This document shows positions 41,897 through 49,720 of a stretch of DNA of 64,000 nt, piece by piece. The DNA lies in NCBI RefSeq assembly GCF_002854065.1, contig NZ_CP024147.1, one strand, 5' to 3'. Position 1 is the first letter of the stretch, and each line of letters starts with the position of its first letter. The notes beneath the pieces were generated by a model. It searched no databases, was not told where the DNA came from, and worked only from the letters and a program-made list of their open reading frames with translations. The DNA comes from Escherichia coli. Lineage in GTDB: Bacteria; Pseudomonadota; Gammaproteobacteria; Enterobacterales; Enterobacteriaceae. The position numbers and the translations under genes are program-made.

Positions 41897-42874
41897 CTAC
41901 AGTAAATCTTCAGTCTCACGAATTTCCTGACTGACATCTCTGGTTCCGGATGACTGAACTTTACGATACAGGTCGAGAGCCTGTCGGAGATCGACAGGTC
42001 TTCCTTCTCCGTAGTGATACATAATGGCCAGGTTATACCAGGCAGTGGCGTCATTGCATTCAGCGGCTTTCGTAAACCATTCAAAGGCAGCCTGATAATC
42101 TTTCTCAACGCCTTGTCCGTGTTTATACATATAACCGATGTTGACGTAAGCGCCGACGCTCCCCTGAGCGGCAGCCTTCAGATACCAGTACATCGCTTGC
42201 TTATAGTCCTGGTCCACCCCTTCGCCAGCGTTATAATCCCATGCAATTTGAAACTGAGCATGCCGATTACCCTGCTGTGCGCTTTTCAAATACCAGAATG
42301 CGGCGAGTGTCTCGTTTTGAGCAACGCCTTTTCCGTCTTCATAAAGATCGGCCAGATTGTTTTGCGCGTCACTATGGCCTTGTAATGCAGCTTGTTTGTA
42401 CCAGAAAAATGCCAGCGTATAGTCTTGTGCGACTCCGTTGCCATTTCTGTACATCCACCCAAGATTATTTTGCGCATAAGACATTCCGCTCTCCGCGGCT
42501 ATCTGATACCAGGCAACCGCTTCTTTATAGTTGGGGTCTTCTCCACGATCCAGTATCCAGCCAAGGGCGTTGGAAGCGAAAGTATGGCCTTGTAGGGCAG
42601 CTTTTTTCAGCCAGAAGATGGCTTGCTCATTATCTTTATGACGGCTTTTATCCTCGGTATACTTTTGCCCTAAGGAATACTGTGCTTCACAATGACCTTG
42701 CTCAGCGGCCAGCTTCAGCCAGTAAAAGGCCTTTTCGTCGTCCGGAGAGTCAATTGCGCTATCGCGATTATAATAAAACCCAACAATATATTGAGCCTCA
42801 CTATCGCCTTGTTCAGCACGTTCGATAATCTCATCTATTGACAAATTATCGCAGCAACTTGACGTAAAAATCAT
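41897..42874 (-). CDS. ybeQ: Sel1-repeat (TPR-like) protein
   Basis: ORF 41897..42880; start taken at the second ATG (MIFTSSCCD) for 325 aa, though the ATG at 42880 is also possible; multiple Sel1-type repeats. Confidence 0.85.
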   Translation of the reverse strand: MIFTSSCCDNLSIDEIIERAEQGDSEAQYIVGFYYNRDSAIDSPDDEKAFYWLKLAAEQGHCEAQYSLGQKYTEDKSRHKDNEQAIFWLKKAALQGHTFASNALGWILDRGEDPNYKEAVAWYQIAAESGMSYAQNNLGWMYRNGNGVAQDYTLAFFWYKQAALQGHSDAQNNLADLYEDGKGVAQNETLAAFWYLKSAQQGNRHAQFQIAWDYNAGEGVDQDYKQAMYWYLKAAAQGSVGAYVNIGYMYKHGQGVEKDYQAAFEWFTKAAECNDATAWYNLAIMYHYGEGRPVDLRQALDLYRKVQSSGTRDVSQEIRETEDLL

Positions 42875-43037
42875 TATCATTTCCTTATGGTTGCAGATAA
42901 AAGATATTATATTTTTATGTGTTCCGTTTTTGCGTAAGTCTTATTTTATGCGTATTATGTTGTGTCGGAAAAGTATAAATAAATGAGCCTCGTAATGTAG
43001 TTTACATTCATTAAATGAATGTTTAAGGATAAATTAT

Positions 43038-43745
43038 ATGGACATAGAGTCGCAAAAAATATTGTTTGCACTTTCCACTCCGATGGAAATACGCAATGAA
43101 TGCTGTTTACCTTCGCATTCATCCCCCAAAATGTATTTAGGTACATGCTTTTTTGACCTTTCTTCCTCCTGGGGAATTGATGACCGTGATGACCTGCTGC
43201 GCACAATTCACCGAATGATCGATAACGGTCATGCCGCGCGGTTGGCAGGGTTTTATCACCGCTGGTTTCGTTATTCTCCATGTGAATGGCGTGACTATCT
43301 TGCTGAATTAAATGAGCAAGGTCAGGCTTATGCGCAATTTGTCGCCAGCACAGCCGAATGCTGTGGTGAGGGAGGAATTAAAGCATGGGATTATGTCCGG
43401 ATGGGTTTTTTAAGTCGAATGGGCGTACTTAATAACTGGTTGAGTGAAGAAGAAAGTCTATGGATCCAGTCGCGTATTCATCTACGGGCTCTACGTTATT
43501 ATAGTAACTGGCGGCAATACTTTGCCGGTTATACCTTTGGTCGGCAATATTGGCAGTCTCCCGAAGATGATAATCTGCCTTTATTACGTGAATTCTTAGC
43601 GCGTAAAGAATACGACGATTCCGGCAATGATATGTTTTATCAATTATTTGCCAGTGATGATGCGTATTACCCTACCTTGTCCTGGCAACCATTGGCTTAC
43701 TATTCTGCATGCCCGGAAACGCTTAAGGATATGAGCGACCTATGA
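43038..43745 (+). CDS. ybeR: DUF1266-like protein, paralog of YbeU
   Basis: 235-aa ORF sharing long identical blocks with YbeU (for example [20 protein letters not shown]). Confidence 0.9.
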
Positions 43746-45169
43746 AAAATTGCTGGAAGATCCTCGAAATAGAGGAAACGACTGACGTCGATATTATCCG
43801 CCGCGCTTATCTGGCGCTGTTACCGTCCTTTCATCCAGAAACCGATCCGCAGGGTTTTAAACAACTTCGTCAGGCGTATGAGGAGGCGCTACGGATTGCG
43901 CAGTCGCCTGCTAAATCTGTTTGGCAACCAGAAGAATATGAGGTAGCAGAACATGAAATTCTGCTCGCCTTTCGTGCGTTACTTGCCTCTGATAGCGAAC
44001 GTTTTCTGCCCTCCGCCTGGCAGCGATTCATTCAGCAATTAAATTATTGCTCGATGGAAGAGATTGATGAATTACGCTGGTCGCTGTGCACAATCGCCAT
44101 GAACACTGCCCATTTATCCTTCGAGTGCGTGGTGTTATTAGCAGAAAGATTGCGGTGGTTGCAGGAGGAAAACGTCGGGGAAATAGACGAAGAAGAACTG
44201 GAATCCTTTTTATATGCCATTGCGAAGGGGAATGTTTTTAACTTCCAGACCATTCTGCATCTGCCCGTTGCCGTGCAAAATGACACCATCGATTTTTACC
44301 AAATGTTCGCTCGGATTTGGTCATCGCATCCAGAATGGCTGACATTGTATTTAGCGCAACATCGCGCAGTGATTATCCCCGATGATGCAAAACTGCACAG
44401 AAATTTACTCCGCTGGTATAGCGCAGGTCGCCTGGGAATTCCCGAACTCCTGGATTACGCCCGGTCGTGGCGGGAAGCTGAACCTGATAATGAAGATGCG
44501 CGTTATTATGAATACGCGCAACGCGTCTATTGTGGAGAAGGCGAAAGCCTGCTGGCAGAACTTTGTGACTACTGGCACGAGTATCCCTCCACTCAGGCGG
44601 ATGCTTTAATGTTGCAATGGTGCCGTCAGCATCGAGTCGATTATTACCCATTAGTGGTGATGATGATTGAAGCTCGCGAACTGGTTAACGACCAGGGAAA
44701 ACCGCTACTTTATGTCCCCGGCGACAGCGCCCGTACGCGTTTTCATTTATACGAAATACTCAGCGATGAAAAACTCTCTGCGCTGGGGCGTTCACTGGTC
44801 GAGATGGTTTTGCACAAAGGACGTAAGCCGCGGATCTCACTCAAGCGTGATACAGAACATACCTTATGGCCATTATATCTAGTTGCCAAACAATTAGTGC
44901 AGGCCAGCCAACCTACAGAAGAATCATTAATGCCGATTGTAAGCCGTCTTGATGCAGAAGATCGTTGTCCACTGGAAGCATTAATTATTCGTCGATTATT
45001 AATTCAGGCGGCGAATTTTACCGAGAAGCAGACTGTTGAACCGGAGCCGCAACCGCAGCCAATGCCCGTTGCCGATGGTGGGCCAGGCTGTCTGGGCATC
45101 ATTAAAATTATTTTCTATATTTTTATCTTTGCTGGTTTGATAGGGAAAATACTCCATCTGTTCGGGTGA
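43742..45169 (+). CDS. djlB: J-domain-like co-chaperone with C-terminal membrane anchor, paralog of DjlC
   Basis: 475-aa ORF with an N-terminal J-like domain, a Pro/Glu-rich linker and a C-terminal hydrophobic helix; ATGA overlap with the ybeR stop. Confidence 0.9.
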
Positions 45170-45178
45170 CAGTCGACG

Positions 45179-45733
45179 TTAATGTGCGGGAAGCCCGGCA
45201 AGTAATCTTTCCGCATTTTTGTAATGTTGTTTGGCGGCCAGTTTTAACCATTTTTGAGATTCATAATGGTTAACATTAATACCTGAGCCATTTCTGTAGA
45301 TCAAACCTAAAGTATATTGAGCATGAGCATACCCTTGTTCAGCTGCTTCCTTATACCAGAGAATTGCTTTACGGGTGTCGGGTTTGACCCCCAGACCTTT
45401 GAGGTAGATCCACCCCAGTTTACTTTGCGCGCGTGGATTTTCCTGTTCCGCTGATTGCTCATACCAGTATCTCGCCTGTGTATAATCCAGTGGTTTACCG
45501 TCGCTACCATGAAGATAAAATTCTCCAAGGCGATATTGCGACGTTGAGTGACCATGAATCGCGGAAAGCTCCGTGGCTGCCGTGGTGAATGGAAGACTGC
45601 CCGGTGAGCTTAAATAATCAAAGGCATAATTCACCATGGCTTTATCACGCAACGTCGTTTTCTTGGGTTGGCTAATACAGGTAATTGCTGCAACTATAAA
45701 AATTGCGAATATATACATTAATTTTTTATTCAT
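45179..45733 (-). CDS. ybeT: Sel1-repeat protein with signal peptide
   Basis: 184-aa ORF with an N-terminal hydrophobic segment and Sel1-type repeats. Confidence 0.9.
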
Positions 45734-45834
45734 GTGTGAATGCTTCGATTTTCTTTTTATTTTGAAAGCGTCAAGTTTATACTCATCAATAATAAAAAAG
45801 TAGTCAGTTAATGCACTTAAGGGATTATTAACAA

Positions 45835-46542
45835 ATGAATAAGGAAGAACAATATTTTCTTTTTGCGCTTTCTGCGCCCATGGAAATACTTAATCAGGGT
45901 TGCAAACCCGCGCATGACTCGCCAAAAATGTATACCGGGATAAAAGAATTCGATCTCTCATCATCCTGGGGAATAAATAATCGTGATGATTTAATTCAGA
46001 CTATTTATCAGATGACTGATGATGGTCATGCTAATGATTTAGCTGGCTTATATCTGACATGGCATCGCTCTTCCCCTGAAGAGTGGAAAGCATTAATTGC
46101 TGGTGGCTCGGAGAGAGGGTTGATTTATACCCAATTCGTTGCCCAAACCGCTATGTGCTGTGGAGAAGGGGGAATCAAAGCTTGGGATTATGTTCGAATG
46201 GGGTTTCTGTCACGGGTCGGTGTGCTCAACAAGTGGCTGACGGAAGACGAGAGTTTATGGCTGCAATCGCGCGTCTATGTACGAGCTCACCATTACTATC
46301 ACAGCTGGATGCACTATTTTTCTGCCTATTCACTAGGGCGTCTCTACTGGCAATCTTCTCAGTGCGAAGACAACACTTCGCTACGCGAGGCGCTAACCCT
46401 GTACAAATACGATAGCGCCGGGAGTCGTATGTTCGAAGAACTGGCAGCGGGAAGCGATCGTTTCTATGCCACGCTTCCCTGGCAGCCATTAACTGTCCAG
46501 CCTGAATGCCCGGTAACGCTTAAGGATGTGAGCGACCTATGA
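45835..46542 (+). CDS. ybeU: DUF1266-like protein, paralog of YbeR
   Basis: 235-aa ORF. Confidence 0.9.
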
Positions 46543-47990
46543 AAACATGTTGGCAAATCCTCGAAATTGAAAGCACGACGCAAATAGACATTATCCGCCA
46601 GGCTTATCTTGCTCGCTTACCGTTATGTCATCCCGAAACCGATCCGCAGGGGTTTAAAGCATTACGCCAGGCCTATGAAGAGGCCCTGCGACTGGCGGTA
46701 AATCCTGTCGAGGAAGCAGATGATGAAGAAAAAGATGCCGCCGCTGAACATGAAATACTACGTGCATTCAGGACATTACTGGATTCAGAAAGTGATCGTT
46801 TTCAGCCTTCCGCCTGGCAGAAATTTATTCAGCAATTAAATACCTGGAACATGGAGGATGTCGATCAATTACGCTGGCCGCTGTGTGCAATCGCTATAGA
46901 AGCGCGATATCTTTCATTAAATTGTGCTTCTTTGCTGGCAGAGCGTTTGAACTGGCATTCGTTTAATGACAGCGAAGGAATAGATGAGGAAGAAAGGGAG
47001 GCTTTTCTTGAGGCCATTCAGGCTGGTGATTGTTTCGATTTCCTTAGCCTTCTGGAATATCCCATTGCGTTGCAGAACCAGACTGTTGAATATTACTTCG
47101 CGCTGGAACGTTGCTGTCGTTACCATCCTGACTATGTCACTGCGTTTTTGGCGATGGCAGGTCCGTGGTTAATTCCTGATGATGCGAAGTTGCATCGCAA
47201 ACTGTTGCGCTGGTACTGCTCGGTGCAAACAGGTATGGCGGAACTCATTCCTGTTGCCCAACAGTGGCAAACGGAAGAACCAGAAAGCGAAGATGCCCGG
47301 TATTACCAGTGTGCACAACGTTTGTACTGCGGCGAGGGGGAAAGCCTGCTTGCCGATCTCTGCGCGTACTGGGGAAGTTACCCATCTACACAAGCCGATA
47401 ATTTGTTGTTGCAGTGGAGCGCACAACATTGCCCGGATTATTTCGCGTTATTAGTGATGGTTATCGAAGCGCGGAGCATGGTAGATGCGCAAGGTAAACC
47501 GTTGAAATATGTTCCTGGTGAGAGCGCCCGGACGCGTCTGTTATGGGCGGAAATTTTACATAGCGGAAAACTATCGCCGTTAGGTCAATCGTTTATTGAG
47601 TCGCTATTCTTCAAACGCAAAGCATGGGCGTGGTGGAAATCGAGAGTCGGTAGCGAGACAGAAGAAGATTCACCGTTACTGGATTTGTATCGGGTAGCGG
47701 AACAGGTAGTACTTGAAGCGTTTCCGAAACAAGAGATGCTGGCCCGTCTTAATACAAGGCTGGAAGGCGGAGATGCTCATCCATTAGAGGCCATTATCAC
47801 CCGGATGCTGTTGACGAAAGTAAAACTCGAGCCGGAGGATGAAGATGTCGATGAGCCAACACCTGAAAACCATGAAGAAAAAAATGATGAGGATGAAAAA
47901 CCACAGAGCATTACCAGCATTATCAAAATCAGCTTAACGGTGCTGGTGATAGGTTATGCTCTCGGCAAAATCGCGATGTTGTTTAGTTGA
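46539..47990 (+). CDS. djlC: J-domain-like co-chaperone of HscC with C-terminal membrane anchor
   Basis: 483-aa ORF; ATGA overlap with the ybeU stop; acidic linker and C-terminal hydrophobic helix. Confidence 0.9.
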
Positions 47991-48010
47991 CGATGTGTTT
48001 TTTGCGCCGA

Positions 48011-48049: not shown

Positions 48050-49720
48050 TTATGGGATCTCAATGGCTAAATAAACGCTCGCCCGCCGCCTGACCTCATC
48101 GACGCGGGCCATATCGTTTGACTGCAGCGCCGCATCAAAATCGGTGATCACCCGGCCAATCTCTTCTCGCTCGTCACCCAGCGCCCGCGCCCACAACTCT
48201 TCCAGTTTGGCTTTAAAGGTACGATTGATGAGCATATCGCGCGGATAAATTTTCAATGCGGATAACCGCGTCCGACTCTCTTCAATCTGCTGCGCGCTCA
48301 ATGTTACCGGGCTGTGGTTAATCACTCTGGACTTAACGCTGCCGTCTTCCAGAAGCACGTCAACTTCAAGCAAGCCGTTGATATCATAACTAAAGCGAAT
48401 ATCAATCGACTGATAAGCTCCGGTTTTCTTCAACGGCACATCGAAGGATTCCACCAGAATGTTATTTTTAACTTTGTGGTTTTCTCCCTGATAGACGTTA
48501 ACCGTAATAGAATCCTGTTCCGGGTGCATGGTCGAGTAAGTTTCTACACGCGACACCGGTACTGTGGTGTTTCGTTCAATAATCGGCGAGAAAATGCCGG
48601 AAACGCCCTGGCGGTTAACTTCAACGCCCAACGAGTAAGGGCAAATATCAGTGAGGATCACTTCTTCAATATCTTCACTGCGTAAGCGGCAGGCGGCCTG
48701 GATTGCTGCGCCCAGCGCGACAATGGTGCTCGGATCGTAACTTTGATACGGTAATTTGCCAAACAGACGCACGGCGATTCGCTGCACCAGCGGCATTTGT
48801 GACGCGCCGCCAACCAGCACCAGACTGTCGATCTGACTCGGCTTCAGACGCGCATCGCGCAATGCCTGTTCAATCGGCACTCGCAAGCGGTTAAGCAGAG
48901 GCAACCACAAATCTTCCAGTTCGTTCTCGTAAAATTCGCACTCCAGCGTTTCTTCCTGGTACTGCCAGCGAATGTGCATTGGCAATTGATTGCTACATTT
49001 TGCCGCTTCCACACAGGCGTACAGGGCAGCCAGTTCGCTCTCGTTAAGGGCTGTTTTGGCGACTTCCGCGCGTTTTAAAACTTCATCGACCAGCATATGA
49101 GTAAAATCTTCGCCACCGAGGAAGTTATCGCCCGCTGAGGCGTGAACTTCAATCACCGGCGTGGCGTACTCAAGCACCGTAACGTCAAACGTGCCGCCAC
49201 CGAGATCAAATACCAGCGAGCGGGTGTTTTGTTGGGTATGCAGGCCATACGCCATCGCAGCTGCCGTTGGCTCATTAATCAGGCGAACTGCATTTAAACC
49301 GGCTAACTCCGCTGCTAAACGGGTATGCTTGCGTTGTTCATCGCTGAAATAAGCCGGAACAGAGATCACCACATCTTTAATCGGACGTTGCAGAAATTCT
49401 TCGGCATCTTCTTTTAATGAACGTAATACCAAAGAGGACAGTTCTGGCGCGTTAAATGTGTCGCTGCCTAACCGCCAGTTGGTATTACTGCCCATTGCAC
49501 GTTTAAATAACGCTGCCGTTTTATCCGGATGCGAAGTACGCCGTGATACAGCCGGTTTTCCGACTAAAATATGATTATTTTCATCCATGCTAATTATGGA
49601 TGGTGTTAAATATTCACCGAACTTATTTGGAATTAATTGCGCGGCACCGTCTTTCCAGACGGCAATTAAACTATTGGTAGTACCGAGATCGATACCAATG
49701 GCGAGTTCTGCATTATCCAT
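48050..49720 (-). CDS. hscC: Hsp70-family chaperone HscC (Hsc62)
   Basis: 556-aa ORF with the Hsp70 N-terminal ATPase signature IGIDLGTTNS. Confidence 0.95.
   Translation of the reverse strand: MDNAELAIGIDLGTTNSLIAVWKDGAAQLIPNKFGEYLTPSIISMDENNHILVGKPAVSRRTSHPDKTAALFKRAMGSNTNWRLGSDTFNAPELSSLVLRSLKEDAEEFLQRPIKDVVISVPAYFSDEQRKHTRLAAELAGLNAVRLINEPTAAAMAYGLHTQQNTRSLVFDLGGGTFDVTVLEYATPVIEVHASAGDNFLGGEDFTHMLVDEVLKRAEVAKTALNESELAALYACVEAAKCSNQLPMHIRWQYQEETLECEFYENELEDLWLPLLNRLRVPIEQALRDARLKPSQIDSLVLVGGASQMPLVQRIAVRLFGKLPYQSYDPSTIVALGAAIQAACRLRSEDIEEVILTDICPYSLGVEVNRQGVSGIFSPIIERNTTVPVSRVETYSTMHPEQDSITVNVYQGENHKVKNNILVESFDVPLKKTGAYQSIDIRFSYDINGLLEVDVLLEDGSVKSRVINHSPVTLSAQQIEESRTRLSALKIYPRDMLINRTFKAKLEELWARALGDEREEIGRVITDFDAALQSNDMARVDEVRRRASVYLAIEIP

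What the first reader, a model, noticed from the sequence alone, without database searches (positions are those of the whole stretch)
43742..47990. Both J-domain paralogs carry HPE in place of the canonical HPD tripeptide
In both DjlB (…[15 protein letters not shown]…) and DjlC (…[15 protein letters not shown]…) the position that aligns by eye to the J-domain HPD signature reads His-Pro-Glu. The Asp of HPD is normally essential for stimulating Hsp70 ATPase activity. A conserved Asp-to-Glu change in both paralogs suggests a specialised or restricted Hsp70 partnership, for example selectivity for HscC over DnaK.
Basis: seen in the sequence. Interest (0 to 1): 0.4.

Follow-up and report, generated by a model that had tools for sequence, protein, structure and literature searches.

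The report
HPE-type J-domains of DjlB and DjlC
The two E. coli membrane co-chaperones DjlB and DjlC do carry His-Pro-Glu where J-domains normally have His-Pro-Asp, but this is a published, family-wide hallmark of the partners of the specialised Hsp70 HscC, not a new finding.

Summary
djlB (43742-45169) and djlC (46539-47990) both encode H31-P32-E33 (CAT CCA GAA at 43832-43840; CAT CCC GAA at 46629-46637). Profile alignment to solved J-domains places HPE exactly on HPD (best E 1e-7; all 39 hits are J-domains). AlphaFold puts it in the loop between helices II and III. The Glu is invariant: 113/113 close homologues, and HPE or NPE/LPE/PPE (never HPD) in the top hits of a search of 1.84 billion proteins. 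No Asp codon version was found among E. coli complete genomes. The family signature is HPExDPxGF.

These J-proteins sit next to an HscC-type Hsp70 in 21/21 informative species genomes and 8/9 distant contigs. A DUF1266 gene usually lies upstream. HscC keeps the residues that contact Asp35 in DnaK (R167, Q378), so Glu has no obvious compensating contact change. Other interface features differ: the D211 loop is deleted and D477 is S/T.

The HPE motif of DjlB/DjlC and their exclusive partnership with HscC are already in the literature (PMC10410713; PMC13254874; PMC8215388, citing Kluck 2002). Verdict: real, interpretation supported, already known, low interest. Whether Glu itself sets the specificity has not been tested.

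The parts
43742..45169 (+). djlB (ybeS) CDS, 475 aa: N-terminal J-domain, helical DjlB_C region, C-terminal hydrophobic tail anchor (aa 449-467)
43742..43906 (+). DjlB J-domain core (aa 1-55: helix I, helix II, HPE loop, helix III)
   Evidence: boundaries taken from the DjlC models
43832..43840 (+). DjlB His31-Pro32-Glu33 codons CAT CCA GAA
46539..47990 (+). djlC (ybeV) CDS, 483 aa: same architecture, tail anchor at aa 464-482
46539..46703 (+). DjlC J-domain core (aa 1-55): helices 4-8, 16-29 and 36-54, with the HPE loop at 30-35
46629..46637 (+). DjlC His31-Pro32-Glu33 codons CAT CCC GAA
47124..47132 (+). Incidental HPD string in DjlC (aa 196-198). It is outside the J-domain, in an unconserved column, and is not a J motif
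48050..49720 (-). hscC, 556-aa specialised Hsp70 and partner of DjlC/DjlB. It keeps R146 (DnaK R167; nt 49283-49285) and Q341 (DnaK Q378; nt 48698-48700) and lacks DnaK 208-211
43038..43745 (+). ybeR, DUF1266 protein; its stop overlaps the djlB start (ATGA)
45835..46542 (+). ybeU, DUF1266 protein; its stop overlaps the djlC start (ATGA)
45179..45733 (-). ybeT, Sel1-repeat protein of the second cassette
41897..42880 (-). ybeQ, Sel1-repeat protein of the first cassette

Best explanation
[quoted passage not shown] Their N-terminal J-domain carries a fixed His-Pro-Glu variant of the HPD loop, within a family signature HPExDPxGF. They are the dedicated co-chaperones of the neighbouring specialised Hsp70 HscC and recruit it to the inner membrane.

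The Glu keeps the carboxylate that, in the DnaK-DnaJ complex, bonds to R167 and Q378. Both residues are retained in HscC (R146, Q341), so the loop most likely triggers ATP hydrolysis in the ordinary J-domain way. That step is inferred.

The Glu arose in the ancestor of the whole DjlB/DjlC-type family, before the E. coli duplication. It has been held by purifying selection as part of an interface co-adapted with HscC-type Hsp70s. Partner specificity probably rests on several differences together: the deleted D211 loop, D477 replaced by S/T, linker L392T, and a shortened loop before helix III. It probably does not rest on Glu alone.

Shown: the motif, its register, the fold, its invariance and the gene linkage. 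Shown by others: DjlC stimulates HscC, while DnaJ, CbpA and HscB do not. Inferred: the Glu-Arg/Gln contact and the multi-site basis of specificity.
For: - Motif and register.
- Fold.
- Invariance among close homologues: 113/113 with an N-terminus have HPE at 31-33.
- Invariance among distant relatives: among the best 150 of 6241 profile hits in 1.84e9 representatives, 105 have HPE in the first 90 residues (a few of these are the internal HPE of fragments). The only early HPD is the internal DjlC-type string in an N-terminally truncated fragment.
- In the 31-sequence alignment, P32, E33, P36, G38, F39 and R43 are invariant, while H31 is only nearly invariant.
- E. coli population: the exact wild-type 57-mers occur in 3537 (djlB) and 1490 (djlC) genomes. 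The GAT and GAC versions have no exact match, although Asp is one base away.
- Linkage: DUF1266, then the J-protein, then an HscC-type Hsp70, in 21/21 informative GTDB loci. An HscC-type Hsp70 is adjacent in 8/9 distant contigs.
- All those Hsp70s share the HscC indels and keep R167, Q378 and P419.
- Literature: HPE in DjlB/DjlC (PMC10410713; PMC13254874); exclusive DjlC-HscC stimulation and deletion of the D211 loop (PMC8215388).
Against: - Neither protein reaches Pfam's DnaJ gathering score as a single sequence, and DjlC alone found no PDB relative.
- Foldseek E-values are weak (0.2-3).
- No complex structure or model was obtained, so the Glu contact is inferred.
- The genome scan used an HPE-containing peptide pattern, so motif counts in those loci are circular. 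Only the linkage result from them is independent.
- The reverse census, from HscC-type Hsp70s to their partners' motifs, could not be done.
Confidence: 0.85

Rival explanations
1. Glu33 is itself the main specificity switch. HPE J-domains fire only HscC-type Hsp70s and HPD J-domains fire only DnaK/HscA types because of this one residue.
For: E33 is absolutely invariant even though Asp is one nucleotide away. It co-occurs strictly with HscC-type Hsp70 neighbours. The DjlC J-domain cannot replace DnaJ's (PMC1906734).
Against: The DnaK residues that bind D35 (R167, Q378), as well as L391 and P419, are unchanged in all HscC-type proteins examined. Several other interface elements differ (D211 loop, D477, L392; helix II K26/R27 become L/A in the enteric forms). 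No E/D swap data are available here.
Confidence: 0.15
2. HPE is a neutral, conservative substitution frozen by descent. It has no functional meaning beyond supplying an acidic side chain.
For: Asp and Glu are chemically similar. Reviews call HPE the only tolerated replacement (PMC13254874). The contact residues are unchanged in HscC. About 1% of all J-domains have HPE, including eukaryotic ones (PMC10410713).
Against: A neutral site one transversion from Asp should show some HPD among hundreds of diverged clusters across phyla and thousands of E. coli genomes. None was seen. E33 is more conserved than H31.
Confidence: 0.2
3. The N-terminal region is a degenerate, inactive J-like domain (a so-called type IV JDP), or the motif is mis-registered and the real J motif lies elsewhere.
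For: The Pfam DnaJ score is below the gathering cut-off. Helix IV is not matched by the profile. DjlC contains an HPD string at residues 196-198.
Against: The family profile hits only J-domains at E 1e-7, with HPE on HPD. The predicted fold is a J-domain hairpin. The 196-198 column is unconserved. DjlC is reported to stimulate the HscC ATPase (PMC8215388).
Confidence: 0.03

Closest known systems
E. coli K-12 DjlB (YbeS) and DjlC (YbeV), co-chaperones of HscC (Kluck et al. 2002, as cited in PMC8215388 and PMC13254874)
   Same: These are the same genes. The window region matches 4406 of 5426 complete E. coli genomes, mostly at 95-100% identity, and is annotated djlB/djlC. The HPE motif, tail anchor and hscC neighbour are all as described.
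   Different: Nothing of substance; only strain-level substitutions.
Canonical J-domain of DnaJ (PF00226; structure 5NRO, DnaK with the J-domain)
   Same: Helix II, loop, helix III hairpin with His-Pro-acidic at the tip. R22, K48 and K51 have equivalents (R20, K40, R43). The Hsp70-side contacts R167, Q378, L391 and P419 are conserved in HscC.
   Different: Glu replaces Asp. The loop before helix III is 6 residues shorter. DnaJ K26/R27 are L24/A25 in the enteric proteins. Helix IV is not matched by the profile. Scores fall below Pfam's cut-off.
HscB-HscA, the other dedicated J-protein/Hsp70 pair of E. coli
   Same: A specialised Hsp70 with its own exclusive class C J-protein encoded nearby, and no use of GrpE (PMC8215388).
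   Different: HscB keeps HPD (from general knowledge; not tested here). HscA serves Fe-S cluster transfer. The clients of HscC are unknown.
Other HPE J-domain proteins (about 1% of J-domain proteins; PMC10410713)
   Same: The same D-to-E variant of the triad.
   Different: Many are eukaryotic or fused to Na/Ca-exchanger domains. No relation to the DjlB_C (PF27158) architecture was tested here.

Membership tests
J-domain (DnaJ domain, PF00226) | Sequence match to the J-domain profile | tested here: inconclusive
   Single sequences score 21.9 and 19.4 bits, below the gathering score of 27.8. Family profiles hit solved J-domains only, at E 4e-4 (15 sequences) and 1e-7 (31 sequences).
J-domain (DnaJ domain, PF00226) | Antiparallel helix II / helix III hairpin with the signature tripeptide in the connecting loop | tested here: met
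   AF2: H16-29, loop 30-35, H36-54, with pLDDT about 93-95 in this part. Foldseek's top hits are J-domains, e.g. 2m6y at rmsd 2.0 A over 53 columns and 5nro_B at 2.7 A over 55.
J-domain (DnaJ domain, PF00226) | Exact His-Pro-Asp tripeptide | tested here: not met
   The tripeptide is His-Pro-Glu in both proteins. The literature treats HPE as the one tolerated variant (PMC13254874), so these are J-domains of a variant type.
J-domain (DnaJ domain, PF00226) | Stimulates the ATPase of a partner Hsp70 | not testable with these tools
   Reported for DjlC with HscC (PMC8215388, citing Kluck 2002). Only assumed for DjlB.
DjlB/DjlC family (J-domain plus PF27158 DjlB_C_2nd) | N-terminal HPExDPxGF J-domain followed by the DjlB_C helical region | tested here: met
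   Near-identical cluster representatives carry precomputed PF27158. The family alignment covers the full length. The local Pfam copy has no such model.
DjlB/DjlC family (J-domain plus PF27158 DjlB_C_2nd) | C-terminal tail-anchor transmembrane helix | tested here: met
   The most hydrophobic 19-mers are at aa 449-467 (DjlB) and 464-482 (DjlC). AF2 gives a helix at 458-482. Membrane insertion of DjlC is reported in PMC8215388, citing Peschke 2018.
DjlB/DjlC family (J-domain plus PF27158 DjlB_C_2nd) | Encoded next to an HscC-type Hsp70 | tested here: met
   hscC lies 60 nt downstream of djlC, convergent. The same linkage holds in 21/21 genome loci and 8/9 distant contigs.
HscC-type Hsp70 (the neighbour) | 550-580 aa, with NBD deletions corresponding to DnaK 76-101 and the D211 loop | tested here: met
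   556 aa. Both deletions are present, along with D477S and L392T. Identity to DnaK is 32%. The features are as described in PMC8215388.

The most novel reading that the evidence does not exclude
The HPExDPxGF J-protein, the HscC-type Hsp70 and the translationally coupled DUF1266 protein form an ancient, self-contained three-component chaperone module. In this reading Glu33 (with His sometimes replaced by Asn) is a co-evolved insulation determinant that prevents cross-talk with DnaK. DUF1266 would be an unrecognised third subunit, such as a client adaptor or regulator. Neither role appears in the papers I could search.
Probability: 0.2. Interest if true: 0.5.

Novelty: already known. Interest (0 to 1): 0.15.

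Why it matters
It matters little as a discovery. The HPE motif of DjlB/DjlC and their exclusive pairing with HscC are already in reviews and in a large-scale J-domain survey. What remains open is mechanistic. No one, in the papers available here, has shown whether Glu rather than Asp is needed for HscC stimulation or for insulation from DnaK, and the clients of HscC are unknown.

Tried and rejected
- Kluck et al. 2002 (PMID 12183460) is not held, so its statements are cited second-hand.
- DjlC as a single sequence found no PDB relative. This was resolved with family profiles.
- NCBIfam has no model matching DjlB, DjlC or the DUF1266 proteins.
- PADLOC gave no defence-system hit for any gene of the cluster, apart from a negligible 16.8-bit match of YbeQ. 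A defence-island reading was dropped.
- The reverse test, from HscC-type Hsp70s to the motif of their J-partner, failed. The word-indexed homologue search with HscC returned only Escherichia and Salmonella proteins.
It returned only 24 loci, mostly Pseudomonas and Enterobacterales, and cannot count HPE against HPD.
- A second HPD/HPE string at residues 196-198 was considered as an alternative motif. It was rejected because the column is unconserved and lies outside the J-domain.
- YbeU (DUF1266) has no solved relative by sequence.
Full report
**What is there.** The window is E. coli chromosome. ORF listing and megablast against 5,426 complete E. coli genomes identify the interval as djlB (43742-45169, 475 aa), ybeT, ybeU and djlC (46539-47990, 483 aa). 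ybeQ and ybeR lie upstream, and hscC (48050-49720, minus strand) lies just downstream. His-Pro-Glu occupies residues 31-33 of both proteins, encoded by CAT CCA GAA (43832-43840) and CAT CCC GAA (46629-46637).

**Is it the HPD position?** Pfam's DnaJ model aligns residues 4-47 of both proteins to profile positions 2-51, but at 21.9 and 19.4 bits, under the gathering score of 27.8. That alone would be weak, so I added three tests.
- phmmer of the DjlB N-terminus against all PDB sequences aligns its HPE on the HPD of dnj-12, DNAJA1 and E. coli DnaJ. DjlC alone found nothing.
- A profile of 15 family members raised this to E 4e-4. A profile of 31 diverse N-termini raised it to E 1e-7. All 39 hits of that last search are J-domain proteins, and the consensus 'hPE' lies on HPD.
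- AlphaFold2 on the full-length family alignment and on the N-terminal alignment (pLDDT 86.8) predicts helices 4-8, 16-29 and 36-54, with HPE in the 30-35 loop. Foldseek's best PDB matches are almost exclusively J-domains, for example DNAJA1 at rmsd 2.0 A over 53 columns and DnaJ in 5NRO at 2.7 A over 55, although E-values are weak for so small a domain.

The only HPD string is DjlC 196-198, where DjlB has another HPE. That column is unconserved in the family and lies outside the J-domain.

**How conserved is the Glu?** The two paralogues are 51% identical, so 'both carry HPE' is one inherited character, not two observations.
- Among 120 cluster representatives found with DjlC, all 113 that have an N-terminus show HPE at 31-33.
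- A profile search of 1.84 billion representative proteins gave 6,241 hits. Among the best 150, 105 have HPE in the first 90 residues (a few of these are the internal HPE of fragments). The rest are N-terminally truncated fragments or carry NPE, LPE or PPE. The single HPD found early in a sequence is the internal DjlC-type string in an N-terminally truncated fragment.
- In the 31-sequence alignment, P32, E33, P36, G38, F39 and R43 are invariant and H31 only nearly so. This gives a family signature HPExDPxGF.
- Within E. coli, the exact 57-mers around codon 33 occur in 3,537 (djlB) and 1,490 (djlC) genomes. The same 57-mers with GAT or GAC have no exact match, although Asp is a single third-base change away.

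This pattern indicates selection for Glu specifically.

**Partner and context.** Distant relatives are long proteins of 650-1,260 aa, with TPR repeats or DUF805 after the shared DjlB_C region.
- Nine of them were located on contigs. Eight have a 560-566-aa Hsp70 immediately adjacent, one of them cut by the contig end; the ninth, P0201, has none on its short contig.
- In a scan of species-representative genomes, all 21 loci with enough flank show the order DUF1266, J-protein, convergent Hsp70. The genera are Pseudomonas, Pragia, Limnobaculum, Budvicia, Klebsiella and Escherichia.
- That scan used an HPE-containing pattern, so it says nothing about HPE against HPD. The linkage result is independent of the pattern.
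- All these Hsp70s are HscC-type. They are 40-63% identical to HscC and 32-37% to DnaK. They share deletions corresponding to DnaK 76-101 and 208-211, L392T in the linker, and D477 replaced by S/T.

**How it probably works.** In the DnaK-DnaJ complex, H33 bonds the backbone of L391, P34 packs on P419, and D35 bonds R167 and Q378 (PMC8215388). HscC and every HscC-type neighbour keep R167, Q378 and P419, and keep L or M at 391. The simplest reading is that Glu33 supplies the same carboxylate to the same Arg/Gln pair, and that the loop triggers hydrolysis as usual. This is inferred, not shown.

No contact residue changes to 'make room' for the extra methylene, so Glu alone is unlikely to explain partner selectivity. 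The interface differs elsewhere:
- The acidic D211 loop that meets helix II of DnaJ is deleted.
- D477, the partner of DnaJ K48, is S/T.
- The J-domain loop before helix III is six residues shorter than in DnaJ.
- In the enteric proteins, DnaJ K26/R27 are L24/A25.

I therefore favour a co-adapted, multi-site interface in which Glu is one fixed element.

**What is already known.** The HPE triad of DjlB and DjlC is stated in a survey of about 280,000 J-domain proteins (PMC10410713). A 2026 review calls HPE the only tolerated replacement and links it to HscC (PMC13254874). A 2021 review reports that HscC is stimulated only by DjlC, that DjlB/DjlC are tail-anchored, that the D211 loop is missing in HscCs, and that hscC and djlB djlC mutants are Cd2+-sensitive (PMC8215388). 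The failure of the DjlC J-domain to replace DnaJ's is cited in PMC1906734. Both the observation and the interpretation are thus in the literature. The original paper (Kluck 2002) was not available to me.

**Verdict.** By-products worth a note are the strict invariance of Glu across phyla, the NPE variants next to HscC-type Hsp70s, and the constant, translationally coupled DUF1266 gene. I found no functional literature on DUF1266.

Noticed in passing
window 43038-43745 (ybeR) and 45835-46542 (ybeU); loci L002, L006-L008, L010-L030, L034: A DUF1266 gene precedes each djl gene, with an ATGA stop/start overlap (43742-45 and 46539-42). The same DUF1266 to J-protein order, with an HscC-type Hsp70 nearby, recurs in 21/21 informative genome loci and in three distant contigs. 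This suggests an uncharacterised third component of the HscC system. No solved relative was found by sequence, and only one paper in the searched library mentions DUF1266.
   Followed up: partly
window 41897-47990: The cassette Sel1-repeat gene (minus strand), DUF1266 gene, djl gene is tandemly duplicated. Identities are YbeR/YbeU 59%, DjlB/DjlC 51% and YbeQ/YbeT about 37% (local). The Sel1 genes were found only in the Escherichia locus among those fetched.
   Followed up: partly
P0219, P0234, P0241 and others; loci L004, L032, L033: Some long TPR-fused relatives have Asn-Pro-Glu (8 of 68 long representatives), and single cases have LPE or PPE, in place of HPE. Three NPE proteins still sit next to an HscC-type Hsp70. 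His-to-Gln kills DnaJ, so a natural His-to-Asn variant is notable.
   Followed up: partly
window 47124-47132 (DjlC aa 196-198) and 44327-44335 (DjlB aa 196-198): There is a second HPD string in DjlC and a second HPE in DjlB at the same alignment column, at a helix break in the C-terminal region. The column is not conserved in the family, so this is judged incidental.
   Followed up: yes
window 42000-48000: The ybeQ-djlC stretch has 42-48% G+C, against 52-54% in flanking leuS and rihA/glt genes. The region matches only 4406 of 5426 complete E. coli genomes (3692 at 80% coverage or more). ybeT and ybeU-djlC are listed as H-NS-regulon genes induced by SlyA overexpression (PMC5797941). It looks like a silenced, variably present islet.
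   Followed up: partly
P0129-P0266: The enteric DjlB/DjlC proteins (about 480 aa) are the short form of the family. Pseudomonas-type relatives are about 900 aa with a C-terminal DUF805 membrane domain, and others are 950-1260 aa with many TPR repeats. It is possible that the separate Sel1 (TPR-like) genes of Escherichia stand in for the fused repeats; this is pure speculation.
   Followed up: no
window 45179-45733 (ybeT): YbeT starts with a hydrophobic segment ([22 protein letters not shown]), suggesting a signal peptide or membrane anchor. YbeQ has none.
   Followed up: no
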